A stretch of DNA of 64,000 nt, taken from the IMG/VR virus record IMGVR_UViG_3300047157_000186; one strand, written 5' to 3'. Of this stretch, positions 12,191 through 62,056 are shown in pieces. This DNA comes from a virus. Taxonomy: Duplodnaviria; Caudoviricetes. How positions within the stretch are numbered: the first letter of the stretch is position 1; the number at the start of each line of letters is the position of its first letter. Under the pieces are notes generated by a model, which was not told the DNA's origin, made no database searches, and saw only the letters and a list, made by a program, of their open reading frames with translations. Made by a program: the position numbers and the translations under genes.

Positions 12191-12215
12191 TAATAGAATA
12201 AATTAGAGGAACAAT

Positions 12216-27056: not shown

Positions 27057-27312
27057 TTACACATTTAGCGACGATAGTAAAAAATGGTTTAGAATATTCG
27101 ATGGACTCATAGTTAATAATGAGGACATGTTTTTCAATGCATTGTATATGGCCATCACACATCATCCAACTTATGTAATTGCTTCAGATTTAGAAGACGA
27201 GCGCAAGATCACTATTTTAGGTGCAATGTTAAAGCACTTTGAAGAAAAAGAAGAATTCGAAAAATGCGCCAGTATTTATAACATTAAAAAACAGATTAAA
27301 ACAATATGCTAA
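27049..27312 (+). CDS. hypothetical protein with C-terminal UVR-like motif
   Basis: MLKHFEEKEEFEKCASIYNIK. Confidence 0.7.
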   Translation: MNDYTFSDDSKKWFRIFDGLIVNNEDMFFNALYMAITHHPTYVIASDLEDERKITILGAMLKHFEEKEEFEKCASIYNIKKQIKTIC

Positions 27313-27491
27313 TAATAGAAGTAGATAAGGGAAATATAGAGAAGGCACTGAAACAATATAAAAGAAAGGTTAGAAATACTAAACAAATAAATCACTTAAG
27401 AGATCAACAAGATTTCACCAAGCCATCAGCAAAGAAACGTCTTAAGATGCAAAAAGCCAAGTACTTACAATCTAAAAATCAACCGGAATGA
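27306..27491 (+). CDS. rpsU: ribosomal protein bS21 (phage-encoded)
   Basis: MLII.V..GNIEKALKQYKRK...LR....FTKPSAKKR...QKAKYLQ matches the Bacteroidia-type bS21 pattern. Confidence 0.9.
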   Translation: MLIIEVDKGNIEKALKQYKRKVRNTKQINHLRDQQDFTKPSAKKRLKMQKAKYLQSKNQPE

Positions 27492-30115: not shown

Positions 30116-30163
30116 AGATTTTTTTATGTCATTTATTTGTGGTATATTAGTACTATAATTAAA
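30116..30163 (+). promoter_or_regulatory. 48-bp conserved early-promoter-like element, copy 2
   Basis: AGATTTTTTTATGTCATTTATTTGTGGTATATTAGTACTATAATTAAA. Confidence 0.8.
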
Positions 30164-30174
30164 AAGCGAAAGAT

Positions 30175-30435
30175 ATGAGTTACACAAGATTTGACAGACA
30201 TAGCTGTTTTACTTCAGAAATGAGAACTATGACAATGGACATTATCAATGCCACTGAAAACGACGAGTTTACAAACATGGCCTATGGGCTTTTTGATGGA
30301 TATTTATATGATGCTCTTTTACCTAAAGCTATAAAATTAGGTGTGAGTAAAGATATAGAAAACAAAATCAAAGGCTTGATCAAAGCCATTGAGATGTATT
30401 TACTTTTAACAAAACCAACAATAAAAACCACATAA
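30175..30435 (+). CDS. hypothetical protein
   Basis: Open ORF directly behind promoter copy 2. Confidence 0.7.
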   Translation: MSYTRFDRHSCFTSEMRTMTMDIINATENDEFTNMAYGLFDGYLYDALLPKAIKLGVSKDIENKIKGLIKAIEMYLLLTKPTIKTT

Positions 30436-31150: not shown

Positions 31151-31198
31151 AGATTTTTTTATGTCAAATATTTGTGGTATATTAGTAGTATAATTAAA
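31151..31198 (+). promoter_or_regulatory. 48-bp conserved early-promoter-like element, copy 3
   Basis: AGATTTTTTTATGTCAAATATTTGTGGTATATTAGTAGTATAATTAAA. Confidence 0.8.
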
Positions 31199-31208
31199 AG
31201 TTAAAAAT

Positions 31209-31607
31209 ATGAATAAATTTAATGTAAATGAAGTAAGGTGTAACGGAGTCGGTGGCTCAGGTTACCAAGCAGTTCTTAAACACAAAGACGCAATCCAAGG
31301 GATTTGTCAAGATGTTAGAGATCTTATAGGTATTGAAAAACTATGGGAACTAGCAACGGCAGAACCTAATGTTGATTATCATCAAGGAACAAGATTTAAT
31401 TCTGTAGAAGATAATGCGTATAGACTTATTACTGGAATTGCAAACCACGTCTCGGAATACATTCCAACAAGTGAATTGATCGAGATGCACGTAGGAGCTA
31501 TTTTACCGATGTTAACTATGGAAGAAAAGGTAACACTTGTTGCTGATGCATGTAGAGATTGCGCTAGCGCAGATCATTGGTACACTTTCGAAAAAGATTG
31601 GGGATAA
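31209..31607 (+). CDS. hypothetical protein
   Basis: Open ORF directly behind promoter copy 3. Confidence 0.7.
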   Translation: MNKFNVNEVRCNGVGGSGYQAVLKHKDAIQGICQDVRDLIGIEKLWELATAEPNVDYHQGTRFNSVEDNAYRLITGIANHVSEYIPTSELIEMHVGAILPMLTMEEKVTLVADACRDCASADHWYTFEKDWG

Positions 31608-31829: not shown

Positions 31830-31877
31830 ATACTTTTTTATGTCAAATATTTGTGGTATATTAGTAGTATAATTAAA
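31830..31877 (+). promoter_or_regulatory. 48-bp conserved early-promoter-like element, copy 4 (5' end diverged)
   Basis: TTTTTTATGTCAAATATTTGTGGTATATTAGTAGTATAATTAAA. Confidence 0.8.
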
Positions 31878-31887
31878 AGCAAAAGAA

Positions 31888-32355
31888 ATGAAAAAAGTAA
31901 TATTTGATTTAGACGGAACTTTGGCTCTCATCGATAAGCGAAGAGCTATTTCTACAAAAGACAATGGAAAAATAGATTGGGATACATTCTTTGATCCTAA
32001 GAACATTGATCTTGACCAACCACATGATGCTGTAATTAAGATGGCACAAATGTTAGATGCAGCTGGACACATGATTGTTATTTTTAGTGGAAGATCTAAA
32101 GCCACTAAAGATGCTACTACAGCTTGGTTAAAAAAGTTTGATGTACCATTTAATGTATTGAAAATGAGACCAACTGGTAAAGATTTTAAGTTTATGCCAG
32201 ACGATGATCTTAAAAAGAAATGGTTTAACGACTTATTTCCAACACAAGATCATGTTGACGATGTAGTTTGTGTATTTGACGATAGACAAAAAGTAGTTGA
32301 TATGTGGAGAGATATGGGTTTAACTTGTATGCAAGTTGCACCTGGTAATTTTTAA
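31888..32355 (+). CDS. HAD phosphatase resembling the 3'-phosphatase domain of T4 polynucleotide kinase (PseT)
   Basis: VIFDLDGTLA, IFSGR, LKMRP...DDDLKK, VFDDRQKVVDMWR. Confidence 0.85.
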   Translation: MKKVIFDLDGTLALIDKRRAISTKDNGKIDWDTFFDPKNIDLDQPHDAVIKMAQMLDAAGHMIVIFSGRSKATKDATTAWLKKFDVPFNVLKMRPTGKDFKFMPDDDLKKKWFNDLFPTQDHVDDVVCVFDDRQKVVDMWRDMGLTCMQVAPGNF

Positions 32356-36227: not shown

Positions 36228-36683
36228 ATGAAATACATAAAACTATTCGAAGAGTTTACAGCAAACAAGGTATCTTGTGATAACTGTGGTTGGTCTTGGG
36301 AAATAGAAGACGGTGGACACGATGTGTTTATTTGTCATAAATGTAATCATGATAATACACCTATTTTAGGAGAACAATTTATCTTACAGGAATTAGAAGA
36401 TCAATTCAATATAGAATTAGATTTATATGATAACGGTAAATACTTACAACTTAGTAAAATAAAAATACAAAAAGAGGACCGAAATAAAGGAATCGGTTCT
36501 AAGGTTATGTCAAGAATTACTGACTATGCCGACACACAAAATTTAAAAATATATCTAACACCTTCTAAAGATTTTGGAGCAACTTCTATTTCTAGATTAA
36601 ATAAGTTTTATAAAAACTTTGATTTTGTCAAGAATACAGATAAAAGCCAAACTAAAGATACTATGGTTAGATTACCAAAATAA
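36228..36683 (+). CDS. Zn-ribbon plus GNAT acetyltransferase with N-terminal leader
   Basis: MKYIKLFEEF; CDNC...CHKC; IKIQKEDRNKGIGSKVM (acetyl-CoA motif A) and LNKFYKNFDF. Confidence 0.75.
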   Translation: MKYIKLFEEFTANKVSCDNCGWSWEIEDGGHDVFICHKCNHDNTPILGEQFILQELEDQFNIELDLYDNGKYLQLSKIKIQKEDRNKGIGSKVMSRITDYADTQNLKIYLTPSKDFGATSISRLNKFYKNFDFVKNTDKSQTKDTMVRLPK

Positions 36684-36693
36684 TAAAAACAAC

Positions 36694-49239: not shown

Positions 49240-50130
49240 ATGGAATTTAAAATATTTGTAAATAAAAAAATAGGAGACGGTAAATTATTTTTAGCTCAAC
49301 CTACTATGCTGTTCGGAAGTTTAAATCCCGAAGATTATGTAATGGTTGCTAAACATATCGTTAAAGATGATGATTTAGTAAGACCTGATAGAATTGCTAC
49401 TGAACACTATGGTACTACTTCAGGATTAGACATTATATTAAAATTCAATGGTATTTCTGATCCTTTTTCTATTAACGTAGGTGAAGAACTTTGGATTCCT
49501 ATGGACACTATTCCTTATTTTAGATTAGAATCTCCACAAATGTATGAGGATAATCCTATTAAGAATCAGTTTATAAAAACTAAACGATTAAGTAAAACTG
49601 ATCAAAGAAGATTAAAGGCACTTAAAAAGAAATATAACAAAGAAAACTTATTGCCACCTAATGTTATTCCAGTTGGTAGAAAAAATTACGAGTTTGATGG
49701 TTCTAACATTAGATTTGGTATGGGACCACAAACGGATGCCGTAGTTGATTCTATATTATCTGATATTAGAAATCAAGATAAATTTGATAATTCTTCAGAT
49801 GAAGAAGCAACTGTAGCTGAGCTTATAATAGATGCAAATGACAATTCACAATTAACAAACAGTAGTGGAAACGGAAGCGGAAGTGGAAACGGAGGCGGAA
49901 GTGGAAAATTATATGAAGATCTTTTATCTGAAAATAGTGGAGTAGTTCAAACTGAACGTGGTAGTGGAACGGGTAGTGGAACAGCTAATGGAACAGGTAG
50001 TGGAAACGGAGGCGGAAGTGGAAGAACAGACACTGCTGATAATGTAGGTGGAGATGAACCCGATGGAACTGCACCTGGAAATGCTGACAACAATCCAACA
50101 AATAACCCAGACGCACCTTGCTCTAAATAA
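49240..50130 (+). CDS. LysM-like baseplate wedge protein (T4 gp53-like) with Gly/Ser/Asn-rich tail
   Basis: HIVKDDDLVRPDRIATEHYG...IILKFNGISDPFSINVGEELWIP. Confidence 0.7.
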   Translation: MEFKIFVNKKIGDGKLFLAQPTMLFGSLNPEDYVMVAKHIVKDDDLVRPDRIATEHYGTTSGLDIILKFNGISDPFSINVGEELWIPMDTIPYFRLESPQMYEDNPIKNQFIKTKRLSKTDQRRLKALKKKYNKENLLPPNVIPVGRKNYEFDGSNIRFGMGPQTDAVVDSILSDIRNQDKFDNSSDEEATVAELIIDANDNSQLTNSSGNGSGSGNGGGSGKLYEDLLSENSGVVQTERGSGTGSGTANGTGSGNGGGSGRTDTADNVGGDEPDGTAPGNADNNPTNNPDAPCSK

Positions 50131-50138
50131 CATACTAT

Positions 50139-52046
50139 ATGGAATTATCTAACAATATATTAGCAGTTGTAGAACCAGCGATTAGGCCAACTGAGATCAA
50201 GATGGATGCACTTGCTGAAGAAAAGAAAGACGAGGCAGAGTACAAGCAATCTACTATGGTTGCAACTCTTAAACCATTTATACTTATTAATGGTTATCAA
50301 TTTGCACCGACTGACGTTATACGTTTTGAGTTAAATTTAATGGGTGATTTACCAGAATGTGAAATTGAATTGAGCGACGAAGCTGGAAAATTTGCAGTTG
50401 GTAGTTATCCAAGAGATGGTGATTTCTTCACAATACTTATAAATTCTAAAAATCAAGAAACATTTAAATCTATTCATATGGATTTTGATATTATAAGCTG
50501 TGAATCCCCAAAAGATGGAAATGTTGGAACTGCTGTATTTGAAATATTTGGAGTTTGTAAAATTCCTAGAATGCAGGCCGAAGATTGTAGAAATTTTGAA
50601 AGTGCAGATTCTTTAACTCATATGGAAGAAGTAGCCCGAGACTTAGAATTGGGTTTAGCAACTAATATTGATGCGGCTGACGATGCACAGTCTAGAATTA
50701 TGGCGTTTGAACCATATCTTAGTTTTATAAAAAAGATAATCAAAGAAAGTTATATAGGTGAAGAATCTTTTCAAAAGTTTTGGATCGATCCATACTACTA
50801 TATGAATTACGTAGATGTAAATGCATTGTTTAATTCACCTAATCCACCGATAGAAGAATTTGCTGAATCATTGGCTTCAGCTGCTGAATCAATGGTGGCT
50901 ACAACTGATGCTGAAAAAAATGCTAAAACAGGAAACGACATTGAGGTACCATTACTATTGACAAATCATGTTGCTTTTATGGGAAATAGTTCATTTATAG
51001 AGAAATCTAATATATTAAATAATTCTGCAAATGTTAGTGCAAAAAACGGATATGCCAGAGAAGTAACTATTTATAATAACAACGGTGATGCTGGTGAGAG
51101 AAAACAAGAATTTAGAATAGAGTCTTTAGGTGGAAATGATTTAAAAGAATTAGAAGAGCCACTAAAGGGTAATAGAAATGATAAAAGACATATTGATCAA
51201 ATCAAATATAAGTATATTGGAAGACAAGAGGCCGGTGATGATGGATTGGGTAACGTACACCCCAATGCTGCATTTTCACAATTGCACAATGCACAAAATG
51301 AGGCTGAAACACAAAAAATGAAATTAGAAGTTACTTTAAATTCATTTAATCCATCTTTATATAAATATCAAAAGATTCCTGTTTTAATGTATATTACTAA
51401 CCCTAAAGCCATACAACAAAACGAAAGAATTAAAGGTGATAAAAAAGAATTAGGCATGGATAAAGATGAGCCTTTTGGATTGGAAGAAGCTAGTGAAGAT
51501 TTAGCAGATGTTGGTAAAAATAGTCCAAGTCAATCTTTAGATTCATTTTTGTCAGGTTATTATATAATTGAAAGTATTATATATGAAGTAGAAGAAGATG
51601 TCACAAAACAAACAATGATACTTCTTAGAAGAGAATGGCCAACAAGAACAGAAAATCTAATTAATCCACCTGGACTTGAAGATGCTACTGATGAAGAAAA
51701 AGCAGATAATGTGGCTGAAAATAGCCCGGAACCAGCACCTGAACCAACTCCAGAACCAACACCAGAACCAACCCCAGAACCAACACCAGAGCCTACACCA
51801 GAGCCTACACCAGAGCCTACACCGGAACCTACACCAGAGTCAACGCCACATGTATATGAAATATTAATAACTGGTAATATGTTGAGAATAGTTGTATTTG
51901 ATGCAAGTGGTGCTGAAGTATATAGAGGTGACCCTAGAATTAGAACAAATACAATATTAGATGAGGGCGGAGTTGTAAATGAAGCTAAAGCATTTTTAGA
52001 TCCATCGAAACAAGACCCTAACGTCCAAAATATGCAAAAAAAATAA
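50139..52046 (+). CDS. putative baseplate hub protein (gp27-like) with Pro-Glu-Pro-Thr linker
   Basis: Lies between the LysM and spike genes; FLSGYYIIESIIY C-terminal barrel motif; (PEPT)n linker. Confidence 0.55.
   Translation: MELSNNILAVVEPAIRPTEIKMDALAEEKKDEAEYKQSTMVATLKPFILINGYQFAPTDVIRFELNLMGDLPECEIELSDEAGKFAVGSYPRDGDFFTILINSKNQETFKSIHMDFDIISCESPKDGNVGTAVFEIFGVCKIPRMQAEDCRNFESADSLTHMEEVARDLELGLATNIDAADDAQSRIMAFEPYLSFIKKIIKESYIGEESFQKFWIDPYYYMNYVDVNALFNSPNPPIEEFAESLASAAESMVATTDAEKNAKTGNDIEVPLLLTNHVAFMGNSSFIEKSNILNNSANVSAKNGYAREVTIYNNNGDAGERKQEFRIESLGGNDLKELEEPLKGNRNDKRHIDQIKYKYIGRQEAGDDGLGNVHPNAAFSQLHNAQNEAETQKMKLEVTLNSFNPSLYKYQKIPVLMYITNPKAIQQNERIKGDKKELGMDKDEPFGLEEASEDLADVGKNSPSQSLDSFLSGYYIIESIIYEVEEDVTKQTMILLRREWPTRTENLINPPGLEDATDEEKADNVAENSPEPAPEPTPEPTPEPTPEPTPEPTPEPTPEPTPEPTPESTPHVYEILITGNMLRIVVFDASGAEVYRGDPRIRTNTILDEGGVVNEAKAFLDPSKQDPNVQNMQKK
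51726..51849 (+). repeat. 12-bp tandem repeat encoding (PEPT)n
   Basis: About ten CCAGA(A/G)CC(A/T)AC(A/T/C) units. Confidence 0.9.
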
Positions 52047-52059
52047 AGATAAATAATAT

Positions 52060-53487
52060 ATGTCAGACTTTAAACATATTAACGAGTTTAGAAAAGGTTC
52101 TGTTTTAAGTAAGATCAGTGAAGATCCAACTTATCTCAGTTTTTTCTTTATGTTTGACGGTGTAGATAGGGAACATTCTCCTTTATTGGCAGGTCCAGCA
52201 GAAGAGTATCTAGAAAAAATGGTAGATGCTAATATGGGTACAACGTATGCCAAAAAATTAGCTAATTTTAGAAAGGTTCTTTTTAAAATCAATAAAGAAA
52301 TGCCATGGTTTTGGCAAAGTGTTACAGGTTTAGAGTTAGTTGAGACTTATGGTAAAATGGATGAGCCATTTAGAGGACAAGAAACTCCTAAGATAGAAAT
52401 AGAATGTTTAGAAGAAAACGTAGAGTTAACTGCAGTTGCATTGATGACACTATATAAGAATGCATGTTATGATTTTAGAAGATATGTAGAAATCTTACCT
52501 AAAAATTTAAGACACTTTAGAGTTTGGACTGTACTTTCAGAAGTTAGGACATTTCAACAAAGTACGGTCGCTAGGGATTTGAACTTATATGGCGCTGAAA
52601 TGCCAGGTAATGAAGCAGGTACTTCTGTTAATCTTATTCCTAGAGCTAAGGGTTATGAAACTGCAGCTGGTAGAAATGCTGGTAAGTTTGATGCTCCATT
52701 AGTTAAACAATATACTGCTGATGCCAAACCACATATTATGTTTGAATTAGGTTTTTGTGAATGGCAAATAGACACAATTGCTGGCATATTTGCAGATCAA
52801 TCTAAAAACCCTGAAAAGAAAAAACCAAAAGTATCATTTACTTGGAATACTGGCTTTATGTCAGGTTCTAAGTTTGGAGAAAACATATCAGAAGAAGAAA
52901 AAAGTCCATTATTTCCGGATGCAAAACCAGATGATGGTTTATATCCTAATCAGCCTTTTAATCCATTAGCGATTGCACAAAATGCAATAAGCGATAAAGT
53001 TAATGGACTTGCAGGTGGTTTAGTAAATAGATTTAATAATTTAAAAAATGGTTTACCAGGATTTGGTAATAATCCTTTAGGTAGAGTTTATCCAGAAGGT
53101 TTAACAGGAGCTGCAGCCTCTTTAGCAAATAGAGGCATGGATGCTGTAAAAGGATTGTTATTAGATAACGTACATGGAAGTACAGGTTTCTTAGGAAGTT
53201 TAAGTGATATTAATAGTGCGCTAGAAGCAGGAAGTGTAAATGCTATTTTAAATTTAGCTGGACAATTAAATCCAAATAATACTAATGTTCCAAGTAATGG
53301 GAATATTACACCGGTTGGTGTATATGATCCAGGAATAGATAGTTCCCCTGATTTTCCAATTAATCAAAAGGTATATGATCCTGTTGCACAAGAACCAGAA
53401 AGTCAAAACATTACACCTGGAAGAATTCATGAACCTGGTGTTGATAGTAGTCCAGATGATAACATTAACGAGAACGTACACTCATAA
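52060..53487 (+). CDS. putative tail/baseplate structural protein
   Basis: Position in the baseplate block; GATAAATA at 52048-52055; no diagnostic motif recognised. Confidence 0.5.
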   Translation: MSDFKHINEFRKGSVLSKISEDPTYLSFFFMFDGVDREHSPLLAGPAEEYLEKMVDANMGTTYAKKLANFRKVLFKINKEMPWFWQSVTGLELVETYGKMDEPFRGQETPKIEIECLEENVELTAVALMTLYKNACYDFRRYVEILPKNLRHFRVWTVLSEVRTFQQSTVARDLNLYGAEMPGNEAGTSVNLIPRAKGYETAAGRNAGKFDAPLVKQYTADAKPHIMFELGFCEWQIDTIAGIFADQSKNPEKKKPKVSFTWNTGFMSGSKFGENISEEEKSPLFPDAKPDDGLYPNQPFNPLAIAQNAISDKVNGLAGGLVNRFNNLKNGLPGFGNNPLGRVYPEGLTGAAASLANRGMDAVKGLLLDNVHGSTGFLGSLSDINSALEAGSVNAILNLAGQLNPNNTNVPSNGNITPVGVYDPGIDSSPDFPINQKVYDPVAQEPESQNITPGRIHEPGVDSSPDDNINENVHS

Positions 53488-53489
53488 GC

Positions 53490-54206
53490 ATGAATGATAA
53501 AGAATTAGTTGAAGATAATCTAAGAGAAACTCATTGGTTAGGAGAAGTTGTAGTAAACGAAGATCCTTTACTTAATGGTAGATGTCGCGTAAAAGTTTAT
53601 GGTAAATTTGATAAACTGACAGATGATGCTATTCCATGGGCAACTCCTATGAATAGAGATCAAATTGGATCACATGCTGTTCCAAGAGTTGGCGATATTG
53701 TTGCAGTTAGATTTGATAACGGAAACATATACCACCCAGAATATTGGTTTCAGATTGATCAAAATCCAGATTTAAAGACAGATATATTGGAAGCATCTGA
53801 TGCACCACATGATGTAATTAGTTTAGTATATGATGCAGAAAGAAATGTTAGAATATATCATTCACCTGAAGATGGCTTAGTTATTACTCGAGGGAGTGGA
53901 GCCAAGGAAAGACCGATGATACAGATAGACGAAGAAGGATTCATTAAAATAAGCACAGATGCGAAGATGTTCTTAGACTGTGGTGATATATTCGTTTCAA
54001 ATGAAGGTGAACCAGGTGCTGATGAAACAGAGCCAGCAGTGAGAGGTCAATCTTTACAAGATTGGTTACAAACATGGTTAGATGATTATAATGCACATAT
54101 TCACCCAACTGGAGTTGGACCATCTGGTCCTCCCATGCCACCTACACCAGCAACCGTAGGTAAATTATCAAGTTCTCATATTAAGTATCAACAAAAGAAT
54201 AAGTAG
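53490..54206 (+). CDS. baseplate central spike (gp5/gpV-like)
   Basis: WLGEVVVNEDPLLNGRCRVKV OB-fold start, VPRVGDIVAVRFDNG...P, and C-terminal HIHPTGVGPSGPP metal-binding apex. Confidence 0.85.
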   Translation: MNDKELVEDNLRETHWLGEVVVNEDPLLNGRCRVKVYGKFDKLTDDAIPWATPMNRDQIGSHAVPRVGDIVAVRFDNGNIYHPEYWFQIDQNPDLKTDILEASDAPHDVISLVYDAERNVRIYHSPEDGLVITRGSGAKERPMIQIDEEGFIKISTDAKMFLDCGDIFVSNEGEPGADETEPAVRGQSLQDWLQTWLDDYNAHIHPTGVGPSGPPMPPTPATVGKLSSSHIKYQQKNK

Positions 54207-54208
54207 TT

Positions 54209-56005
54209 ATGCCTGCACTGTGGCCAACATTCATACCAAATTTAGCAGCTGATATTGCTGGGCGAGAATTTACAAAACCAGGTGGTGCTATAGTTTCATA
54301 TGCTCTTCCAAAGGTTGGTGTTAATCAAGTTCCTATTTTTCCTCCATCTTTAGATCTAATAAAATCTATTAAACCTGGAAATCCACTAAACGTATCATTA
54401 ACAACAGATCCTACTGCAATGATAAATGCTATTAATCTTGCACCTCTAAGTGGAAGATATGATTTTGGTGTAAGAGTTGCTGAAAGATATTTAGAAGCTG
54501 TAAAAGGTTTAGCAATGACACCGTTTGGTGCAACGCATACTAATAATCCTGCTGCTGAATTTCTTTTAAAACAAGGTTATGGCTTAGTATTTGAACGATT
54601 ATTAAAAGAGGGTGATATTCCATTGCAAGATCAATATGATGAAGATGGTAATTTAACTGAAATGGGTAAAGAGTCACATCCTGATTATGCTGATTTTTGT
54701 CCAGATCCAGTTGAGGAACCAGATCCAATTGAGGAACAAAAGAAATTAGATAAGAAATTTAGTAAGTTTATAGACGAGTATAAGAATGATTCTGCTATGG
54801 ATTTAAAAAAGTTTAGATTTTTTGAATTTCCATGTTTAACTGGAGATGAATCGCAAGAGGATTTAGAAAAACTTTTTGCTTCTAGATTATTACAACAATT
54901 TAGCGGTATTACAAACGTAAACACTAAATGGGAATTCTATATTTGGTTAGCATGTCTTGGTTCAGAAAACTATAGTAATTCGAGTGGATTTGGAGGAAAC
55001 TGGTCGGGTTTACCATATCCTAATATTAGTAACGAAACTAGAAGTGATATTGAAGATGCAGGTTATAGTTGGACACAGCTTGCTAATAATGTAAGTAGCA
55101 TATGTGTTGAAGCAATTCATGATGCACATCCAGGTGAAGAATCTGAAAGTGCATTTTTTAACACAAACGCACTAAGACAGAGAATTCAAAAAGATGCCAC
55201 TAATGAAATTGTTTTGCCTATAGAATTAGAATGTCCACTAAATAGGTATAAAATACAGGTTGCATATGATTACGAAACTGATAGTAAAAGACCTAAAATT
55301 TTAACATCACATGTTATTGCGACATTTAGTTGGTATCCTGGTGTAAGAAGCGGATCGTTTAGTGCAAATGCAGAAGGTATTGTTACTAATGCTCCTAAAT
55401 TTACAAAAAATAATAATTGGGTTAAATCAAAGTATAGAGATCAAGAATTAAAAAATGGTTGGCGCAAAATTCCAAATGCAATGAGCAACGCTAGAACACC
55501 TGAACATGTGATTGATATAAACCCAACATCAGGTGGAACTATATTTAAATTTCAAAGACAACAAGTGATCGACGCTAAGGCCGCTGCAGAAGAATGTGAT
55601 GCTGCAGAAGAAGATAGTAATATAGATTATACTTGGCCAGGTGGTGATCCTTATGAAGAAATGGCAGAAATAACTATTGCATATTGGTATGCATGTTTAG
55701 TGAAACCATTTACACCATCTCCATCTGCTTTGCCAGCATTGATTCCTCCTCCACTTACTGGAATTTATATTCCAATTTATTATGGTGGTAAAAAAAGATT
55801 GGCTAAGAATTTAAGAAGAGCATGGAATACCGGGAAAACATTTTCAGTTATTCCTGCTCCAATGCCACCTGCATTAGCAGTTTCAACAGCTGTTGCGGCT
55901 GCGTATATGTTACACTTATTAGAATTTAAATTATTATATCTTGGTGGAATTCCTACACCTGCTGGACCAGTGCCAATGGTTGGAATTGTTCCTGTAGTAT
56001 TCTAA
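54209..56005 (+). CDS. putative baseplate-associated structural protein
   Basis: Follows the spike gene; Pro-rich hydrophobic C-terminus (GGIPTPAGPVPMVG). Confidence 0.5.
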   Translation: MPALWPTFIPNLAADIAGREFTKPGGAIVSYALPKVGVNQVPIFPPSLDLIKSIKPGNPLNVSLTTDPTAMINAINLAPLSGRYDFGVRVAERYLEAVKGLAMTPFGATHTNNPAAEFLLKQGYGLVFERLLKEGDIPLQDQYDEDGNLTEMGKESHPDYADFCPDPVEEPDPIEEQKKLDKKFSKFIDEYKNDSAMDLKKFRFFEFPCLTGDESQEDLEKLFASRLLQQFSGITNVNTKWEFYIWLACLGSENYSNSSGFGGNWSGLPYPNISNETRSDIEDAGYSWTQLANNVSSICVEAIHDAHPGEESESAFFNTNALRQRIQKDATNEIVLPIELECPLNRYKIQVAYDYETDSKRPKILTSHVIATFSWYPGVRSGSFSANAEGIVTNAPKFTKNNNWVKSKYRDQELKNGWRKIPNAMSNARTPEHVIDINPTSGGTIFKFQRQQVIDAKAAAEECDAAEEDSNIDYTWPGGDPYEEMAEITIAYWYACLVKPFTPSPSALPALIPPPLTGIYIPIYYGGKKRLAKNLRRAWNTGKTFSVIPAPMPPALAVSTAVAAAYMLHLLEFKLLYLGGIPTPAGPVPMVGIVPVVF

Positions 56006-56051
56006 AAAATAATAGGATATATATTATGTTACACCTTTAATATAAAAATAA

Positions 56052-57338
56052 ATGAACAACGAAAAAAACAAAAGGATCAGAATTGGGGAAAAGACACCAA
56101 AAGAGACCGTAGTTGAAGAACTAGATGTAAAAATCGAAAACACAGAAATTGAAGAAGATGCTAATCAAGCATTTTATGATGAGAACGGGGAATTCATGTG
56201 GGATGCATATGAGTCTACTTGCCCGTCAAGAACAAGAAAACCAAATCCACACATTAAAACCAAAGACGGCGATAAAGTCTACTCTAGGGAATCTTATGCC
56301 CAAGAAATGTATGACATGCTTACTGCACATGATGCTAGTATTGGACAATTACTGACTGTAATTAATCCTGGTGAAATTCATGAAGGTAAAATTTATGCAA
56401 TTAATTCTGAGTTTATTAGCGTTGATATTGGTTACAGGGAATTGATCTACGTCAAGTATGATAAAGAACCTGCTGAAATTCAATCGCTAAAACCAGGTGA
56501 TGACACCGCTGTACTAATTACACAATTGGGTAAAAACTCACATATTGTTGGTAGTATTAATGGTGGTGTTAAACACAAAGTGTTTATGGATCTTAGAGCT
56601 GCAGTTGAAGAAGGAAACACAGCGTGGGTCGGTACAGTTACAAATATGATTGAAAATGGAGGTTATATGGTAATGGTACAAGGCATAGAATGTTTTATGC
56701 CAGGATCTTTAGCTGGAATTAATAAACTACATGACTTTAGTTCTATTATTGGAACGGAAATGTATGTAGTTCCTGTTAGTTTCTCACCGGATAGAGGTAC
56801 GTTAGTAGTTTCTCATAGAAAATATTTACAAGCTTTAATACCTGGAGAAATTGAAAACTTAAAACAAACACAAGGTGAAACAGTGACTGGAAATGTTACG
56901 GGTACTGCAAAATACGGAGTATTTGTAGAATTTAATAAGTGTTTAACTGGTATGATTCATAATAATGATTTAGATGAAGATACATTAGCCAAGTTTAGAG
57001 CCAGAGAAATTAAACCAGGTGATGAAATTTCATTTATGGTTAAAGATATTATAAGTAATACTAAAATAACATTAACTCAAAAGGCAAATATAGTTGTTAA
57101 TCCATGGGTAGATATTATTTCTAGATATCAAATTCCTTCTGTGGTACAAGCTACTGTTAAAACTAAAAAGGATTACGGATTATTTATCACAATAGAAGAT
57201 GGAGTGACTGGTTTGCTACATGTTAGCGAATTAAGTGAAGAAGTAATGAGCGTATTTAAAGCTGGTGACCCAATCACGGTACAGATTACAAGAATCGATG
57301 TTGATTCGATGAAAGTCTTTTTAAAGATGCCGCAATAA
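56052..57338 (+). CDS. rpsA: ribosomal protein bS1-like protein with four S1 domains
   Basis: IECFMPGSLA, TLVVSHRK, KYGVFVEF...GMIH, DYGLFITIEDGVTGLLHVSELS; N-terminal EFMWDAYE resembles Bacteroidota bS1. Confidence 0.85.
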   Translation: MNNEKNKRIRIGEKTPKETVVEELDVKIENTEIEEDANQAFYDENGEFMWDAYESTCPSRTRKPNPHIKTKDGDKVYSRESYAQEMYDMLTAHDASIGQLLTVINPGEIHEGKIYAINSEFISVDIGYRELIYVKYDKEPAEIQSLKPGDDTAVLITQLGKNSHIVGSINGGVKHKVFMDLRAAVEEGNTAWVGTVTNMIENGGYMVMVQGIECFMPGSLAGINKLHDFSSIIGTEMYVVPVSFSPDRGTLVVSHRKYLQALIPGEIENLKQTQGETVTGNVTGTAKYGVFVEFNKCLTGMIHNNDLDEDTLAKFRAREIKPGDEISFMVKDIISNTKITLTQKANIVVNPWVDIISRYQIPSVVQATVKTKKDYGLFITIEDGVTGLLHVSELSEEVMSVFKAGDPITVQITRIDVDSMKVFLKMPQ

Positions 57339-57391
57339 CTATTGCAACGAGAGTGTGATATATAATCAAACGGTAATATCATAATCTTAGT

Positions 57392-58702
57392 ATGCAAAAA
57401 TTAACTATAGATTCTCCGAGAGAATCAATCCTAAACGCAGCACTCATGGGTGTTGAGTTTGAGTTCTATTCTAACCTCGATCTAGAAGTAACCAGAAAAG
57501 CTCTGGAAAAACTTCTAGATCGAAAGATTAGATTAGAAGATAAAGCCCATTCTGATTTTGTACCATCTGCTGAAGAATTTAAAATTGAGCCAGATATGTC
57601 TGGTGGTAAAGGATTAGCAGAGTTGGTTACGGGACCTATCTCGTATAGAAATGCCAGATTAGTGGTTATTAAGATGTTAAAATGGATATCTGAAAATGGA
57701 TATACTAATGACAGAGCATCAATTCATATAAATTTATCTTTCGATAAAAAGTATCTCGAAGATAAAGATCTTGTTTCTAAAATGAATGTTCTTAAATTTA
57801 TTTTAGAATTTGATGAAAAACAAATCTATAAGTTTTTCCCTGAACGTGAAAATTCTACATATGCAAAGAGTGTAAAATGGGTAATGCCAAAAATTGAAGC
57901 ATTTCATTTTGATGGTAATCATATAGCGTCAAACAATTTTAAATTTGCTGACACAAAATATTATGGAATTAATTTTTCCAAAAAAGAAAAGAATTACTTA
58001 GAATTTAGGTATATTGGTGGAGCTGATTATGAGAAAAAATCAGATGATATTCTTTATTTAACTGAAAGATTTTTAATGCAAATGTGGAATTCGTGTAATG
58101 ACTCCAGGTTTAATGATGAGAATAAAATAGAATTACAGAGAATTTTAAATAAAAATAAACCTATCTCAGATATACTAAAGGACTACTCTAAGGTATCTGA
58201 ACATTATCCCGACATAACTATATTGGTAGATTTAGTAGATAACCCAGTCATTATTAAATTGCAATGGGAAAGGTTTAAGAATAGAGTAGTAGATCTTATA
58301 GTAAATGGATCTATGACTGCCGGCTTAATTAATTATGATTCTAATTATGGAGCCACACAAATAAAAGATGGAAAGTTTCCAACTGTTTATCAATTAGAAG
58401 ATTTTGAATTTATAGATTGTGAAATAGCTGGGAATGTAACTAATTCTAGTTTTTATGGGTGTGAAATAACTGGGTCTGCTATCATGTATGGTAGTTTATA
58501 CAAAGGCACTAAGGTAAAAGAATCAAAAGTAGAATCTAGTTATACACATGGTAGTTGTGAATTAATAAACTGTTATGTTGCGGGTAGAGATACTATGTTT
58601 AAAGGTAAAATGATTGGAGGTATATTCAGAGAGGGTTTCAAAACAAAAGATGCCAGATTTGAAGATACTGAGATTGTTGTAAGTAAAAAAATAAGAGAAT
58701 AA
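57392..58702 (+). CDS. putative amidoligase (carboxylate-amine ligase fold) with beta-helix-like C-terminus
   Basis: GVEFEF, IEPDMSG...ELVT, SIHINLS, KYYGINF, YLEFR. Confidence 0.75.
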   Translation: MQKLTIDSPRESILNAALMGVEFEFYSNLDLEVTRKALEKLLDRKIRLEDKAHSDFVPSAEEFKIEPDMSGGKGLAELVTGPISYRNARLVVIKMLKWISENGYTNDRASIHINLSFDKKYLEDKDLVSKMNVLKFILEFDEKQIYKFFPERENSTYAKSVKWVMPKIEAFHFDGNHIASNNFKFADTKYYGINFSKKEKNYLEFRYIGGADYEKKSDDILYLTERFLMQMWNSCNDSRFNDENKIELQRILNKNKPISDILKDYSKVSEHYPDITILVDLVDNPVIIKLQWERFKNRVVDLIVNGSMTAGLINYDSNYGATQIKDGKFPTVYQLEDFEFIDCEIAGNVTNSSFYGCEITGSAIMYGSLYKGTKVKESKVESSYTHGSCELINCYVAGRDTMFKGKMIGGIFREGFKTKDARFEDTEIVVSKKIRE

Positions 58703-58703
58703 A

Positions 58704-59546
58704 ATGAGTGAAATTAGAAGCGGTTCAAACCAAGATTTAACTTCTGGTAGAAATTTCGATCCAAATTGTCTAAATACTTTTTTAGAAGAAATAGGTGATG
58801 ATATTACTGGGGCATGTATGGTACCTATTAATTTGCCACAAAAAGAGATTGTTAATATAATTAAAAGAGCCAAAAAATGGTTTTATAAAAAATATGAATA
58901 TTCTGTAAAAGAAAATTTATACCATATTCCAAATAGTGTATTTAGTACATCACACTTTAAAAGCCACAGAGCACTTACGTTGCCTGGGCCAAGTGCAGAC
59001 GGAGGTGGAGGTGTATATTCAGTATATGGTTTATATGACTTAGCTTCAGGTTGGAATGGAGGCGGAGGCGGAATGGATGTGAGATTCCAAGGTGGTTCTG
59101 ACTTTTCAATGGAGCGAATGTTATTTAGAGGAATGTATGAAGGTTCTGGTATGGCTGAAGCCGCAGAAGAACTACAGTATTATGTATTGAACGCTTCTAT
59201 GGCAGATTTGTCTAGACAAATACTTGAAAACCCTATTTCATTTCATTATTCTAGTTTAACTGGAGAATTAAAATTTATGGGTGATACACCAAAGGGTGAT
59301 GTTATTTTAGAGATATATGAAACTATCCCTGATTGTGCATTATATTCAGATGAAATATTCTTTAGATATGTGAGTGCAAAAATAAAACAATCTATTGGTT
59401 CTAAATTAGCAATTTTTAAATTTGCCCTTCCTGGTAATGTTGATTTTGATTATGATGCCATTAAAAGTATGGGTGATGATGAGCTATCAGAGATTAACGA
59501 AGAGATTCAAGGAGACGAAGGTGTTGATTGGATGATGCATTCATAA
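58704..59546 (+). CDS. putative neck / head-completion protein (T4 gp13-like)
   Basis: C-terminal YVSAKIKQSIGSKL.IF...LPGNV.FD...I...G..E..EI pattern. Confidence 0.65.
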   Translation: MSEIRSGSNQDLTSGRNFDPNCLNTFLEEIGDDITGACMVPINLPQKEIVNIIKRAKKWFYKKYEYSVKENLYHIPNSVFSTSHFKSHRALTLPGPSADGGGGVYSVYGLYDLASGWNGGGGGMDVRFQGGSDFSMERMLFRGMYEGSGMAEAAEELQYYVLNASMADLSRQILENPISFHYSSLTGELKFMGDTPKGDVILEIYETIPDCALYSDEIFFRYVSAKIKQSIGSKLAIFKFALPGNVDFDYDAIKSMGDDELSEINEEIQGDEGVDWMMHS

Positions 59547-59568
59547 ATAAAAGAAGATAAATAAATAA

Positions 59569-59925
59569 ATGGAATTATATATAAAATATCCTAGCGATCC
59601 TAATTACGACGAAGATCAAGTTCAGACTAATGGTGAAATAGAAATGTTGATCACACAGATTCAAACAATTTTATTCACTAATAGTGGTGAAGTTATGGGG
59701 GATCATAAGTTTGGATGTGATTTAGAAACACTTATATATGATTTCAATTCTAGTGAACATAATATTAAATCAGTGATAGTAGATCAGATTAATGCATATT
59801 GCCCATTAGCATCAAAATACAATGTTCAAGTGAACATTGACTTTGTTCGAGGTGAAGTTAGAGATATTGCGTTCATAGATATTACGATAGATAGTAGATA
59901 TGCTATAAAAATAAGCATGCTATAA
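59569..59925 (+). CDS. baseplate wedge protein (gp25/GPW-like)
   Basis: QIQTILFTNSGEVMGDHKFGCDLETLIY. Confidence 0.85.
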   Translation: MELYIKYPSDPNYDEDQVQTNGEIEMLITQIQTILFTNSGEVMGDHKFGCDLETLIYDFNSSEHNIKSVIVDQINAYCPLASKYNVQVNIDFVRGEVRDIAFIDITIDSRYAIKISML

Positions 59926-59942
59926 AAAAGTATACATAAATA

Positions 59943-61772
59943 ATGGCAGAATTAAAATTTTTAAGTACAATTAGAACGGGAGCAGAGTCTATTAAGGCTG
60001 ATGCTAGAACTTATATTTCTAGGGTATACAATAGAGCTAACACTTTGTTTACTTTAGCTTCACCGTTTGCACAAATAATAGCTGTACTATCAGAAATGAT
60101 GGATCTTATTATGTATTATATTGAGGATTCTGTAGTAGAACAAAACATATATACTGCACAGCAACCAGAATCAATATATGGTATGTCAAGATTGACAGGT
60201 CATGATGCGACAAGAGGATTTGCTTCTACTGGTGAAATTATATTTAGATGGAAACCTGGTGCTGATATGGCAAAAATAGCAGGAAGTTTATTAAATATTA
60301 ATGGTAGATCAGAAATTAAATTTGATGCTAACGGAATGACGTATACTTTATTAAATTCTGTTGAATTATTTAAATTAGAAAAAACAAATTATAATGCATT
60401 TAAAAGTGCAATAATTCAAGGTAAATTTGAATCACAAACTGTGACTTCTAATGGTGAAAAATTACAATCATTTAACATTAATACTGGTGGAATCACTGAT
60501 CATAGTAAAGTTACTGTAAGTGTTAATGGTGAGCAATGGACAAAGCATGAATCTCTTTATGATCTATTATCTGATGAGAAAGCATATTTAATTAAAACTG
60601 GTATTAGCGGAGGTTTAGATCTTTATTTTGGAAATGGAAGTTTTGGAATGGTGCCACCAAATGGTGCTAGTATTAAAGTGGAATATGTAAAACATTCTGG
60701 AATTGCTGGTAATTTAGATGATTCACCTGATCTAACTATTAAGTGGGATGCAACTGGTTATGATTCTAATGGAACAGAACATGATTTAAATGAATTCTTA
60801 GATGTAACTGTTACTTCATCTCCAAAAATGGGTAGTGATAGAGAGAATACTCAATTTACAAAAATAATGACACCACTTGCAAGTAAATCATTTGTATTAG
60901 CTACACCTGATAACTATGAATACTTTTTGTCAAGATATAATATGTTTTCTTACATAGATGCATATAACACTACTGACGATCAATATTTAGATGATGATAA
61001 TGTTATTTATATTTTTGCGGTGCCAGATGTTAATAAAAAATTAGCTAAAAATCAAGATTACTTTACTGTACCACAAGAAGAAATGTTCTTTGATCAAGGT
61101 GAGTATGATGCAATGCATAAGGTTTTAGAAGATAGCGGCCAACAAATGGTAACAACTGAAGTTGTTTTTGTTAAGCCACAGATAAGAAAATATAGTATTG
61201 ATATTAATATTAGATTCTTTGAAGGTTATACTAAGGATGAAATTTACACAGCTGTAAGAGAGAGAATGTCAACATACTTATTAAATATAACAAGAAGAGA
61301 TAAACTGCCTAAGTCTGATATTATTTATATCTTAGAAGAAGTAGCAGGTATTGACGCTGTAAATGTTAGGTTCATTTCAGAGACAGAAGAAACAGCAAGA
61401 AGACTTGGTTATTATGAATCAATTACTACTACCGTGGTTCCACAAGAACCAGTAACACTGGAAACTGTAGGAAATGGAAAACAAAAATATGTTTTCTTTA
61501 AGAAAATAGAGGATGTAAAGGTGGTTCCAGTTGATGAAAATACTGTTATTCCTCCTAAGGTAAAAGGATTAGATCAGTGGGGTGATATTATAATGGAAAA
61601 AGAAGAAGTTGCTGTTTTTAGAGGCGGATGGTTAGATAGAGATGGTGACGTTATGGAAGATGATGTGTTAATTAACGCTGAAGCTGCGGTAAGTATAAAC
61701 TTTGAAGCAGATCCTGTGCCTAGAACAATATACACTAGAGTACAAGCTGGAAATAGAAAGGCACTTAAATAA
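59943..61772 (+). CDS. baseplate wedge protein (T4 gp6 / baseplate J-like)
   Basis: LYFGNGSFGMVP..GASIKVEY, G.D.E, VLATPDNYEYF, RRDKLPKSDII. Confidence 0.85.
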   Translation: MAELKFLSTIRTGAESIKADARTYISRVYNRANTLFTLASPFAQIIAVLSEMMDLIMYYIEDSVVEQNIYTAQQPESIYGMSRLTGHDATRGFASTGEIIFRWKPGADMAKIAGSLLNINGRSEIKFDANGMTYTLLNSVELFKLEKTNYNAFKSAIIQGKFESQTVTSNGEKLQSFNINTGGITDHSKVTVSVNGEQWTKHESLYDLLSDEKAYLIKTGISGGLDLYFGNGSFGMVPPNGASIKVEYVKHSGIAGNLDDSPDLTIKWDATGYDSNGTEHDLNEFLDVTVTSSPKMGSDRENTQFTKIMTPLASKSFVLATPDNYEYFLSRYNMFSYIDAYNTTDDQYLDDDNVIYIFAVPDVNKKLAKNQDYFTVPQEEMFFDQGEYDAMHKVLEDSGQQMVTTEVVFVKPQIRKYSIDINIRFFEGYTKDEIYTAVRERMSTYLLNITRRDKLPKSDIIYILEEVAGIDAVNVRFISETEETARRLGYYESITTTVVPQEPVTLETVGNGKQKYVFFKKIEDVKVVPVDENTVIPPKVKGLDQWGDIIMEKEEVAVFRGGWLDRDGDVMEDDVLINAEAAVSINFEADPVPRTIYTRVQAGNRKALK

Positions 61773-62056
61773 TGGGTTTATTTACAAATTTATTTAACTA
61801 TAGACAACGTAGAAGATATGATTCTGCTAAATCTAGAAAGGATGATAGATTACACACGGGATTTAACTACGATGATGAGTTGGCTCCAGGAGAATTTATT
61901 AGTAAGTCTTTGTCTGGTCACATTCAAAGAAATCAAACTATGCAACATTTTTTAATATTCTTAGATGACGCATTAAAGAATTTATTAAAGGGTGCAAGAT
62001 ATTTAAATAATTTTAAAAATTACACCGTTGACGAAAACACAAAGAAAACTAAATAA
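61772..62056 (+). CDS. hypothetical baseplate-region protein
   Basis: TAATG overlaps with both neighbours. Confidence 0.65.
   Translation: MGLFTNLFNYRQRRRYDSAKSRKDDRLHTGFNYDDELAPGEFISKSLSGHIQRNQTMQHFLIFLDDALKNLLKGARYLNNFKNYTVDENTKKTK

What the first reader, a model, noticed from the sequence alone, without database searches (positions are those of the whole stretch)
56052..57338. Four-domain bS1 homologue inside the baseplate operon: a second ribosomal initiation component
Seen: four S1 repeats, an acidic N-terminal extension with EFMWDAYE, and its own GATATATA motif at 56016, between structural genes. Established: bS1 binds A/U-rich leaders, and host bS1 in Gram-negative bacteria typically has six S1 domains. 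Inference: together with bS21 this gives a two-protein kit that could replace host initiation determinants and favour late phage mRNAs.
Basis: partly seen in the sequence, partly recalled or inferred. Interest (0 to 1): 0.65.

Follow-up and report, generated by a model that had tools for sequence, protein, structure and literature searches.

The report
Phage copy of ribosomal protein S1
A large marine phage of Flavobacteria-type hosts carries a shortened copy of ribosomal protein S1 that keeps the host-specific pieces used to dock S1 on the ribosome. It probably helps late phage messages get translated, but phage S1 genes have been reported since 2020, so this is a well-documented member of a known kind.

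Summary
ORF 56052-57338 (428 aa) is a true bS1 homologue. Residues 105-425 align collinearly with E. coli bS1 domains 1-4, and an AlphaFold model shows four OB folds.

The EFMWDAYE segment is not a new extension. It is the N-terminal anchor helix typical of class Bacteroidia bS1 (for example GEFNWDAYES in one Bacteroidia genome; FLANFNWHNF in F. johnsoniae). A second helix follows (SRESYAQEMYDML) that matches the uS2-binding helix. Domains 5-6 are absent.

The gene belongs to a very large marine phage family (at least 582 IMG/VR contigs). It keeps its place in the baseplate/neck module down to 27% identity, has its own GATATATA box, and occurs in many seawater metatranscriptomes. Window genes lack Shine-Dalgarno sequences.

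bS21 co-occurs in 5 of 5 informative related contigs. However, complete huge phages LR756500 and Lak-C1 have S1 without bS21.

My best reading is that it replaces host bS1 on 30S subunits late in infection; no binding was shown. Phage rpS1 plus rpS21 hijacking was already proposed (Al-Shayeb 2020), and this scan found the same gene before on other DNA.

The downstream neighbour is not structural: it is a glutamine-synthetase-fold amidoligase fused to a beta-helix, paired with S1 across the family.

The parts
56016..56023 (+). GATATATA late-promoter-like box, 36 nt upstream of the S1 start codon
   Evidence: The box is kept upstream of S1 in 19 of 19 viral loci checked. RNA contigs from 4 metatranscriptomes begin at 56036-56097.
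56024..56051 (+). Conserved SD-less, A-rich leader containing ACCTTTAA (56033-56040)
   Evidence: The leader is nearly invariant in loci whose S1 protein is 62-99% identical. No SD is present.
56052..57338 (+). Phage bS1 homologue, 428 aa (P0001)
56052..56171 (+). N-terminal tail (aa 1-40): conserved basic head KNKRIRIG, then a variable acidic stretch. Predicted disordered.
   Evidence: The host bS1 of G002 has a comparable K/E/V-rich tail.
56172..56219 (+). Anchor helix A (aa 41-56, GEFMWDAYES), counterpart of the Bacteroidia bS1 N-terminal helix
   Evidence: L059 has GEFNWDAYES, L031 and L074 have FDWDAYE, and L078 has FLANFNWHNF. In F. johnsoniae this helix contacts uS8 (PMC13000457).
56220..56282 (+). 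Basic loop (aa 57-77, TCPSRTRKPNPHIKTKDGDKV). By my count it is about 12-14 residues longer than the linker of cellular Bacteroidia bS1.
   Evidence: Invariant C57, N65, P66, H67, K69, T70, G73 and D74 in the close clade. Basic loops of similar length occur in distant members.
56283..56342 (+). Anchor helix B (aa 78-97, SRESYAQEMYDML...), counterpart of the uS2-binding N-terminal helix of bS1
   Evidence: AF2 predicts a helix at 83-97. E. coli has ESFAQLFEESL, with Phe5, Gln7 and Phe9 contacting uS2 (PMC10123108). Bacteroidia have YSAEERTKYDKVYEDTL.
56364..56561 (+). OB1 (aa 105-170); Arg129 aligns with E. coli Lys43
56622..56819 (+). OB2 (aa 191-256), the most conserved domain. Tyr205 and Phe215 align with E. 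coli Phe120 and Phe130.
56868..57083 (+). OB3 (aa 273-344), canonical S1 RNA-binding domain
   Evidence: Pfam S1 at E 3e-10. The YGVFVEF...GMIH signature is present.
57132..57329 (+). OB4 (aa 361-426), canonical S1 RNA-binding domain
   Evidence: Pfam S1 at E 1.2e-11. The YGLFITIE...GLLHVSE signature is present.
27306..27488 (+). Phage bS21 (61 aa), Bacteroidia type (MLII..., KAKYLQ)
   Evidence: An ATATATAA box at 27020 lies upstream of the overlapping preceding ORF.
57357..57364 (+). GATATATA box of the downstream gene
57392..58702 (+). Conserved neighbour: Amidoligase_2 (glutamine-synthetase fold) fused to a C-terminal pentapeptide-like beta-helix. Not a recognisable structural protein.
53490..54206 (+). 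gp5-like baseplate OB protein (module context)
58704..59546 (+). gp13-like neck protein (module context)

Best explanation
The gene encodes a phage version of ribosomal protein bS1.

The protein is built from:
- a disordered tail;
- the two N-terminal anchor helices characteristic of class Bacteroidia bS1, separated by an enlarged basic loop;
- OB domains 1-4.

It is transcribed from its own late-type promoter together with baseplate and neck genes.

The proposed mechanism has three steps, all inferred:
1. The anchor helices and OB1 dock on uS2, uS8 and the platform of host 30S subunits, in competition with the loosely bound six-domain host bS1.
2. OB3 and OB4 capture the short, A-rich, SD-less leaders of phage late mRNAs.
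3. Phage bS21, where present, sits next to OB1 and helps to hold the protein in place.

Shown here: homology, domain order, motif retention, synteny, promoter placement and presence in RNA libraries. Inferred: ribosome binding, competition with host bS1, and preference for phage mRNAs.
For: Homology and fold:
- Collinear match to bS1 domains 1-4.
- Four OB folds in the AF2 model.
- The Foldseek top hits are ribosome-bound bS1; OB1-OB2 matches chains 9guq_B and 8peg_Z at TM 0.71-0.72.

Anchor motifs:
- GEFMWDAYES and SRESYAQEMYDML match Bacteroidia bS1 N-termini. Among 30 Bacteroidota bS1 loci drawn evenly across the phylum, only two carry the FDWDA motif, and one of these (L031) is a Bacteroidia genome.
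- In F. johnsoniae, residues 4-40 of bS1 are modelled on the 30S (PMC13000457).
- Equivalents of E. coli contact residues are kept: Tyr82, Gln84, Arg129, Tyr205 and Phe215.
- OB2 is the best-conserved domain.

Sufficiency: OB1-3 suffice for S1 function in E. coli (PMC3858243).

Host style: only 3 of 62 genes have an SD core, and leaders are A-rich.

Expression:
- The stretch is held in 17 RNA runs.
- In 4 runs, RNA contigs start just after the box and are deeper than over the upstream gene. This is only a weak hint.

Links to bS21:
- bS21 co-occurs in 5 of 5 informative contigs.
- bS21 bridges OB1 to 16S rRNA in E. coli (PMC10123108).
- bS1 is unstable on F. johnsoniae 30S that lacks bS21 (PMC13000457).

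Precedent: phage bS21 sits among structural genes and is expressed late (PMC9723584).
Against:
- The phage clade sits on a very long branch outside all cellular bS1, so OB1-OB4 have diverged strongly. NCBIfam rpsA scores are far below the curated cut-offs (167 against 524 bits).
- The helix-to-OB1 linker and the loop between the two helices are longer than in cellular bS1, which might change docking.
- The constant position inside a virion-assembly module and the constant pairing with an amidoligase are not explained by a translation role.
- S1 occurs without phage bS21 in LR756500 and Lak-C1.
Confidence: 0.6

Rival explanations
1. It is an off-ribosome RNA-binding factor. The four-domain S1 protein would act as a free RNA chaperone, an mRNA protector, or a cofactor of a phage enzyme. 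Host S1 serves Q-beta replicase in this way through OB1-OB2. It would not be a 30S component.
For: - S1 domains are common in non-ribosomal proteins (PMC6375957).
- Al-Shayeb et al. leave open a role 'on or off the ribosome'.
- In Q-beta replicase, OB1-OB2 bind a partner other than the ribosome; chains 4q7j and 4r71 appear.
- The clade lies on a long branch away from cellular bS1.
Against: Retention of both Bacteroidia-specific N-terminal anchor helices and of the Lys43-equivalent basic residue is hard to explain if the ribosome is not the partner. In Q-beta replicase and other extraribosomal roles it is the host protein that is borrowed.
Confidence: 0.17
2. It is a ribosome-blocking decoy. 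The protein docks on 30S in place of host bS1 mainly to shut down host translation. It would act as a dominant-negative truncated S1 and would not actively recruit phage mRNAs.
For: It has the same anchor evidence as the best explanation, and it lacks OB5-OB6.
Against: - OB3 and OB4 keep the canonical RNA-binding signature and are well conserved.
- OB1-3 is a fully active minimal S1 in E. coli (PMC3858243).
- Phage genes themselves lack SD sequences and should need S1-type recruitment.
Confidence: 0.13
3. It is a virion-associated protein. It would be made with baseplate and neck proteins and either packed or built into the particle. There it would have a structural role, or would be injected to act on host ribosomes at the start of the next infection.
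For: - The position between gp5-like and gp13-like genes is constant down to 27% identity.
- It has a late promoter.
- The N-terminal ETVVEE (aa 18-23) resembles the ES(V/Q)V(N/T)E linker of the head-cargo polyprotein at 36619-39654. My regex found this motif in no other window protein.
Against: - The N-terminus does not resemble the MKYIKLFE-type leaders of this phage's putative head cargo.
- The host bS1 tail of G002 has a similar EAVVExID stretch, so ETVVEE may simply be inherited.
- The motif is poorly kept in relatives.
- The S1 of P0190 lies among replication genes.
- Phage bS21 shows the same late, structural placement without being structural (PMC9723584).
Confidence: 0.07

Closest known systems
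Ribosomal protein bS1 (RpsA) of class Bacteroidia, e.g. Flavobacterium johnsoniae bS1 (PMC13000457) and the Bacteroidia loci L059, L031 and L078 fetched here
   Same: - N-terminal K/E-rich tail.
- FxWxxY/F anchor helix.
- Second helix ahead of OB1.
- Collinear OB1-OB4 with the same OB3/OB4 RNA-binding signature.
- Use in organisms without SD-led initiation.
   Different: - Only four OB domains (428 aa against about 570-740 aa).
- No OB5-OB6 and no C-terminal tail.
- By my count the basic loop between the two anchor helices is about 12-14 residues longer.
- A longer helix-to-OB1 linker.
- About 27% identity to the co-binned Flavobacteriaceae bS1.
- A separate long-branched clade.
rpS1 genes of huge phages (Al-Shayeb et al. 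2020, PMC7162821), including LR756500 and the Lak phages
   Same: - Phage-encoded multi-domain S1.
- Genomes that rarely use SD sequences.
- The same proposed role in hijacking initiation, together with rpS21.
- LR756500 shares 35% identity and the gp5-like ... S1 ... amidoligase ... gp13-like gene order.
   Different: This member comes from a very abundant marine clade whose contigs reach about 150-260 kb. In the text I read, the paper does not describe the Bacteroidia anchor motifs, the fixed structural-module position or the amidoligase pairing. It states that 'true' rpS1 proteins are hard to confirm.
Phage bS21 of Bacteroidota phages (Chen et al. 2022, PMC9723584; Mizuno et al. 2019, PMC6375957)
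   Same: - A loosely bound 30S platform protein encoded by phages of Bacteroidota.
- Placed among structural genes.
- Expressed late.
- Proposed to substitute for the host protein.
   Different: It is a different ribosomal protein. For one phage bS21, incorporation into E. coli ribosomes is reported (Mizuno et al. 2019, as cited in PMC9976891). I found nothing comparable for phage S1.
Naturally four-domain bS1 of Actinobacteria (M. smegmatis, PDB 8wi7_b)
   Same: A four-OB-domain S1 that is seen bound to the ribosome. It aligns with aa 95-427.
   Different: It is cellular, it lacks the Bacteroidia N-terminal anchor helix, and it has a different C-terminal region.

Membership tests
Ribosomal protein bS1 (RpsA) | Tandem S1/OB domains, collinear with bS1 domains 1-4 | tested here: met
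   phmmer aligns aa 105-425 with E. coli residues 19-345 at E 3e-43. NF004952 positions 22-374 match. The AF2 model has four OB folds. Foldseek top hits are bS1 chains.
Ribosomal protein bS1 (RpsA) | Score above the curated equivalog cut-off of the NCBIfam rpsA models | tested here: not met
   The best score is 167 bits against a cut-off of 524. The protein is too short and too diverged to be called an rpsA equivalog.
Ribosomal protein bS1 (RpsA) | N-terminal helix and OB1 loop that bind uS2 (E. coli Phe5, Gln7, Phe9, Lys43) | tested here: inconclusive
   Sequence counterparts are present and conserved: Tyr82, Gln84, Met86/Tyr87 and Arg129.
Ribosomal protein bS1 (RpsA) | Physical presence on the 30S subunit | not testable with these tools
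   This needs co-sedimentation, cross-linking or cryo-EM.
Ribosomal protein bS1 (RpsA) | Six OB domains, as in Gram-negative and Bacteroidia bS1 | tested here: not met
   There are only four domains; the protein ends at the end of OB4. All relatives in the close (65% identity or more) clade are 412-447 aa apart from one 366-aa fragment; more distant short relatives are mostly 344-449 aa.
Bacteroidia-type bS1 | N-terminal FxW-containing anchor helix (F. johnsoniae FLANFNWHNF, residues 11-20) | tested here: met
   GEFMWDAYES is at aa 46-55. The same motif appears in most Bacteroidia bS1 sampled, with 9 of 10 residues identical to L059. Among 30 bS1 loci drawn evenly across the phylum Bacteroidota, only L025 and L031 carry it, and L031 is a Bacteroidia genome.
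Bacteroidia-type bS1 | Phylogenetic placement of OB1-OB4 within Bacteroidia bS1 | tested here: inconclusive
   The phage clade is monophyletic (SH-aLRT 100) but lies outside all cellular bS1, on a long branch. The AU test does not reject phage+Bacteroidia (p 0.13) or phage+Bacteroidota (p 0.14).
Huge-phage rpS1 + rpS21 'initiation kit' (Al-Shayeb 2020) | Both genes in one phage genome that lacks SD sequences | tested here: met
   S1 is at 56052 and bS21 at 27306. Only 3 of 62 genes have an SD core. Five of 5 informative related contigs hold both genes.
Huge-phage rpS1 + rpS21 'initiation kit' (Al-Shayeb 2020) | Obligate pairing of the two genes | tested here: not met
   The complete genomes LR756500 and Lak-C1 have the S1 homologue but no bS21. 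In the window the genes are 28.5 kb apart.

The most novel reading that the evidence does not exclude
S1 and the amidoligase-beta-helix gene that follows it in the window and nine of the related loci examined (with one gene between in LR756500) form a late ribosome-remodelling pair. The ATP-dependent carboxylate-amine ligase would covalently modify a 30S platform component or the phage S1 itself. This would be analogous to RimK glutamylating bS6, whose C-terminal helix helps hide the anti-SD in Bacteroidia. Together with phage bS21, this would convert host ribosomes into phage-specialised ones.
Probability: 0.1. Interest if true: 0.8.

Novelty: new member of a known kind. Interest (0 to 1): 0.36.

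Why it matters
Bacteroidia start translation without Shine-Dalgarno pairing and appear to lean on bS1 and bS21. A very abundant group of marine phages carries both proteins. Its S1 keeps exactly the host-class docking elements.

This gives a concrete and testable case of a virus replacing exchangeable ribosomal proteins to bias initiation. F. johnsoniae in vitro systems and ribosome structures already exist for such a test. The precise mapping of anchor helices, the enlarged basic loop and the missing OB5-6 tells experimenters which pieces to swap.

The idea itself is not new, and function remains unproven.

Tried and rejected
There is no result.
2. SLBP-like RNA-binding domain in aa 44-86. 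A single-sequence hit to 4l8r_C (E 0.35) vanished when a family profile was used, and Pfam shows no SLBP family. It was chance.
3. The window's own assembly is not held. The nearest record, G001, is a 47-kb fragment with bS21 but without the S1 region.
4. The megablast of 50000-62000 against the phage collection found nothing.
5. The treekit AU test on 101 rows did not finish in three tries. I replaced it with a 45-row LG+F+G4 test.
6. The top cellular hits could not be named, apart from a Wallbacteria and a Deltaproteobacteria MAG. No donor lineage can be read from similarity ranks.
7. The ungapped identity figures for the leaders are distorted by 1-nt indels. I use only the visual conservation.
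8. No tRNA genes lie in the window.
9. Contig depth and gaps cannot rank expression. I treat the contig starts only as a weak hint.
10. The S1 C-terminus (MPQ, MPE or MP in relatives) was considered as a Pup-like ligase substrate. It is not conserved, so I dropped the idea.

Full report
**The gene and its domains**

ORF 56052-57338 (+) encodes 428 residues.
- Pfam finds two clear S1 domains, at aa 272-342 and 363-424. It gives only a weak trace at 105-132.
- That pattern is expected for bS1, whose first two domains are divergent.
- phmmer against PDB sequences aligns aa 105-425 in one piece with E. coli bS1 residues 19-345, which are domains 1-4 (E 3e-43).
- The NCBIfam rpsA model NF004952 matches aa 75-427 to profile positions 22-374 at E 4e-49. 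The score is far below the equivalog cut-off (167 against 524 bits).
- An AlphaFold2 model built on 38 relatives (pLDDT 82.7) shows four OB barrels at 109-168, 192-254, 277-342 and 363-425. Before them lie helices at 50-56 and 83-97 and a disordered tail.
- The best Foldseek matches are ribosome-bound bS1 chains. OB1-OB2 superposes at TM 0.71-0.72.

Domains 5-6 are missing.

**The N-terminus**

EFMWDAYE (aa 47-54) is not a phage invention.
- I fetched bS1 genes from 30 genomes of class Bacteroidia and from 30 genomes drawn evenly across the phylum Bacteroidota.
- Most Bacteroidia carry the motif (D/E/A)F(D/N)W about 10-90 residues from the start. Examples are GEFNWDAYES (L059, 9 of 10 identical to the phage), FDWDAYE (L031, L074) and FLANFNWHNF (L078).
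- The cellular bS1 of Flavobacteriaceae MAG G002 has AFLNxFxWHNY.
- Among the 30 phylum-wide loci only L025 and L031 carry the motif, and L031 is itself a Bacteroidia genome that also appears in the class sample.
- In F. johnsoniae this stretch (residues 11-20) forms a helix that contacts uS8. Residues 4-40 were modelled on the 30S subunit (PMC13000457).

A second conserved helix, SRESYAQEMYDML (aa 78-90), has two counterparts:
- Bacteroidia YS.EER....Y(E/D).TL;
- E. coli ESFAQLFEESL, whose Phe5, Gln7, Phe9 and Glu10 bind uS2 (PMC10123108).

From the alignment:
- E. coli Lys43, which enters the uS2 zinc pocket, corresponds to Arg129. Arg129 is invariant in the close clade.
- The OB2 pocket residues Phe120 and Phe130 correspond to Tyr205 and Phe215. 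Phe215 is invariant across the wide family.

The phage-specific features are these:
- a basic loop of about 21 residues between the two helices, strongly conserved, against about 8-10 residues in cells;
- a conserved basic head, KNKRIRIG;
- the lack of OB5-6.

OB2 is the most conserved domain. OB1-3 is the minimal fully active S1 in E. coli (PMC3858243), so a four-domain protein can in principle do the job.

**Family and context**

- The big protein collection holds more than 120 clusters at 65-99% identity. All but one 366-aa fragment are 412-447 aa long. Many come from Tara and other marine samples, on contigs of up to 256 kb.
- IMG/VR has at least 582 contigs with a relative.
- The exhaustive search shows a wider set of proteins, mostly 344-449 aa (plus shorter fragments), that match collinearly at 27-45% identity. 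Cellular bS1 follows at 26-32%.
- In a tree of OB1-OB4, the 33 short proteins form one clade (SH-aLRT 100). It sits on a long branch outside all cellular bS1.
- A smaller AU test does not reject a sister relation to Bacteroidia (p 0.13) or to Bacteroidota (p 0.14). The donor therefore cannot be read from the OB domains. The N-terminal motif is the only pointer to Bacteroidia.

Gene order is remarkably stable: gp5-like OB protein, one or more unknowns, S1, a 420-466-aa protein, gp13-like, gp25-like, gp6-like.
- This order is seen at 79% identity (L002, L003), 45% (L005), 37-39% (L007, L008) and 27% (L160).
- It is also seen in the 462-kb phage LR756500.
- It is not seen in Lak-C1, in LR756501, or in one contig where S1 lies among replication genes.

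**Promoter, leader and expression**

- All ten GATATATA copies in the window are on the + strand, 12-72 nt upstream of a start codon. The related ATATATAA behaves in the same way.
- The raw count is not above chance. It is the placement that is informative.
- The 45 nt before the S1 start, GATATATA(A/T)TATGTTACACCTTTAATATAAAAATAAATG, are nearly invariant in 19 viral loci whose proteins are only 62-99% identical.
- The next gene's leader is equally conserved, so this is a property of late leaders here and not special to S1.
- The stretch is held in 17 runs filed as RNA; the 20 holding runs come from 19 studies.
- In four of them the RNA contigs begin at 56036-56097, just after the box, and are deeper than over the upstream gene. 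Contigs cannot prove a start, so this is a weak hint.
- Only 3 of 62 genes have an SD core. Leaders are A-rich and G-poor, as in Bacteroidia and their phages.

**bS21**

- The window's bS21 (27306-27488) is of Bacteroidia type.
- Among ten long related viral contigs, the five that reach 25 kb or more upstream of S1 all hold bS21. It lies 25-34 kb upstream on the same strand. By my reckoning from the contig coordinates, the other five do not reach that far.
- MAG G002 holds phage-type S1 and phage-type bS21 beside the host copies.
- The complete genomes LR756500 and Lak-C1 have S1 but no bS21. LR756501 has both.
- The pairing is therefore a clade habit, not a requirement.
- Published structures make a functional link plausible. 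bS21 bridges bS1 OB1 to 16S rRNA in E. coli (PMC10123108). bS1 density is lost, and bS1 no longer stimulates initiation, on F. johnsoniae 30S lacking bS21 (PMC13000457).

**Interpretation**

The best-supported reading is a late-expressed replacement for host bS1 on 30S subunits that favours SD-less phage leaders.
- The rivals are an off-ribosome RNA factor, a blocking decoy and a virion protein.
- The ETVVEE motif at aa 18-23 resembles the linker of this phage's head-cargo polyprotein. It also resembles the host bS1 tail and is poorly conserved.
- No binding test was possible.

**Prior knowledge**

- Al-Shayeb et al. 2020 already reported rpS1 and rpS21 in huge phages. They linked rpS1 with the lack of SD sequences and proposed hijacking of initiation.
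- Mizuno et al. 2019 note earlier virome reports of bS1 and set S1 aside as ambiguous.
- This scan has met the same gene on other DNA several times. Two follow-ups reached the same verdict.
- I therefore file it as a new member of a known kind.

**The neighbour**

The gene at 57392-58702 is not a recognisable structural gene.
- Homologues pass the Pfam threshold for Amidoligase_2 (27-38 bits against a cut-off of 22).
- A confident model (pLDDT 90.6) matches glutamine synthetase, GshF and YbdK in its first ~300 residues. It matches pentapeptide-repeat beta-helices (AlbG, Qnr, MfpA) in its last ~120 residues.
- Conserved ExE, DxSGG, E, HxN, R and ExR positions suggest an active ligase.
- It follows S1 directly in the window and in L002-L008 and L160, and with one gene between in LR756500. 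It is itself followed at once by gp13.
- Whether it acts on S1, on a ribosomal protein or on the neck is unknown.

Noticed in passing
window 57392-58702 (+): The conserved gene right after S1 is an Amidoligase_2 (glutamine-synthetase fold) fused to a pentapeptide-like beta-helix. It has its own GATATATA box (57357), and gp13 follows 1 nt later. The S1-amidoligase adjacency is kept from 99% down to 27% S1 identity. Its substrate is unknown.
   Followed up: partly
window 56033-56040 and the leaders of L002-L008 and L081-L159: The S1 leader carries a conserved (A)CCTTTAA box about 12-19 nt before the ATG. Promoter plus leader is nearly invariant across loci whose proteins are 62-99% identical. 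A possible operator for autoregulation, as in E. coli rpsA, was not tested.
   Followed up: partly
window 30150-30175, 31185-31209, 31864-31888: A second repeated upstream box, ATATTAGTAGTATAATTAAAAG, precedes three small genes. It is probably another promoter class (early or middle).
   Followed up: no
window 25789, 36228, 39658, 40349 (and 35528): Several ORFs start with MKYIKLFE-like leaders (MKHIRTYE at 35528), each right behind a TATATAA box. They resemble T4 capsid-targeting sequences, as earlier notes of this scan also say.
   Followed up: no
window 12931, 13039, 14011 (inside ORF 12216-15665): There are near-identical DNA repeats, ...acgac(t/c)gTATATAATacaacttggattacaagtca, inside the Thr-rich fibre gene. 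They are repeated protein modules rather than promoters.
   Followed up: no
window 56103-56120 (aa 18-23 of S1) and ORF 36619-39654: ETVVEE in the S1 tail matches the ES(V/Q)V(N/T)E linker consensus of the polyprotein. My regex found the motif in no other protein of the window. The host bS1 tail of G002 has EAVVExID, so this may be inheritance or chance.
   Followed up: partly
L010 (Lak-C1) 11656-12498; L011 (LR756501) 11103-11585: In these huge phages the S1 homologue sits next to RNA-handling genes (a Thg1-like tRNA-His guanylyltransferase; an RNaseH-like protein). It does not sit next to structural genes or an amidoligase.
   Followed up: no
G002 (Flavobacteriaceae MAG SAT1509): contigs C26, C33: Phage contigs with S1 (66% identity) and phage-type bS21 are binned with a Flavobacteriaceae genome that has its own bS1, uS2 and bS21. 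This is a weak pointer to the host family.
   Followed up: partly
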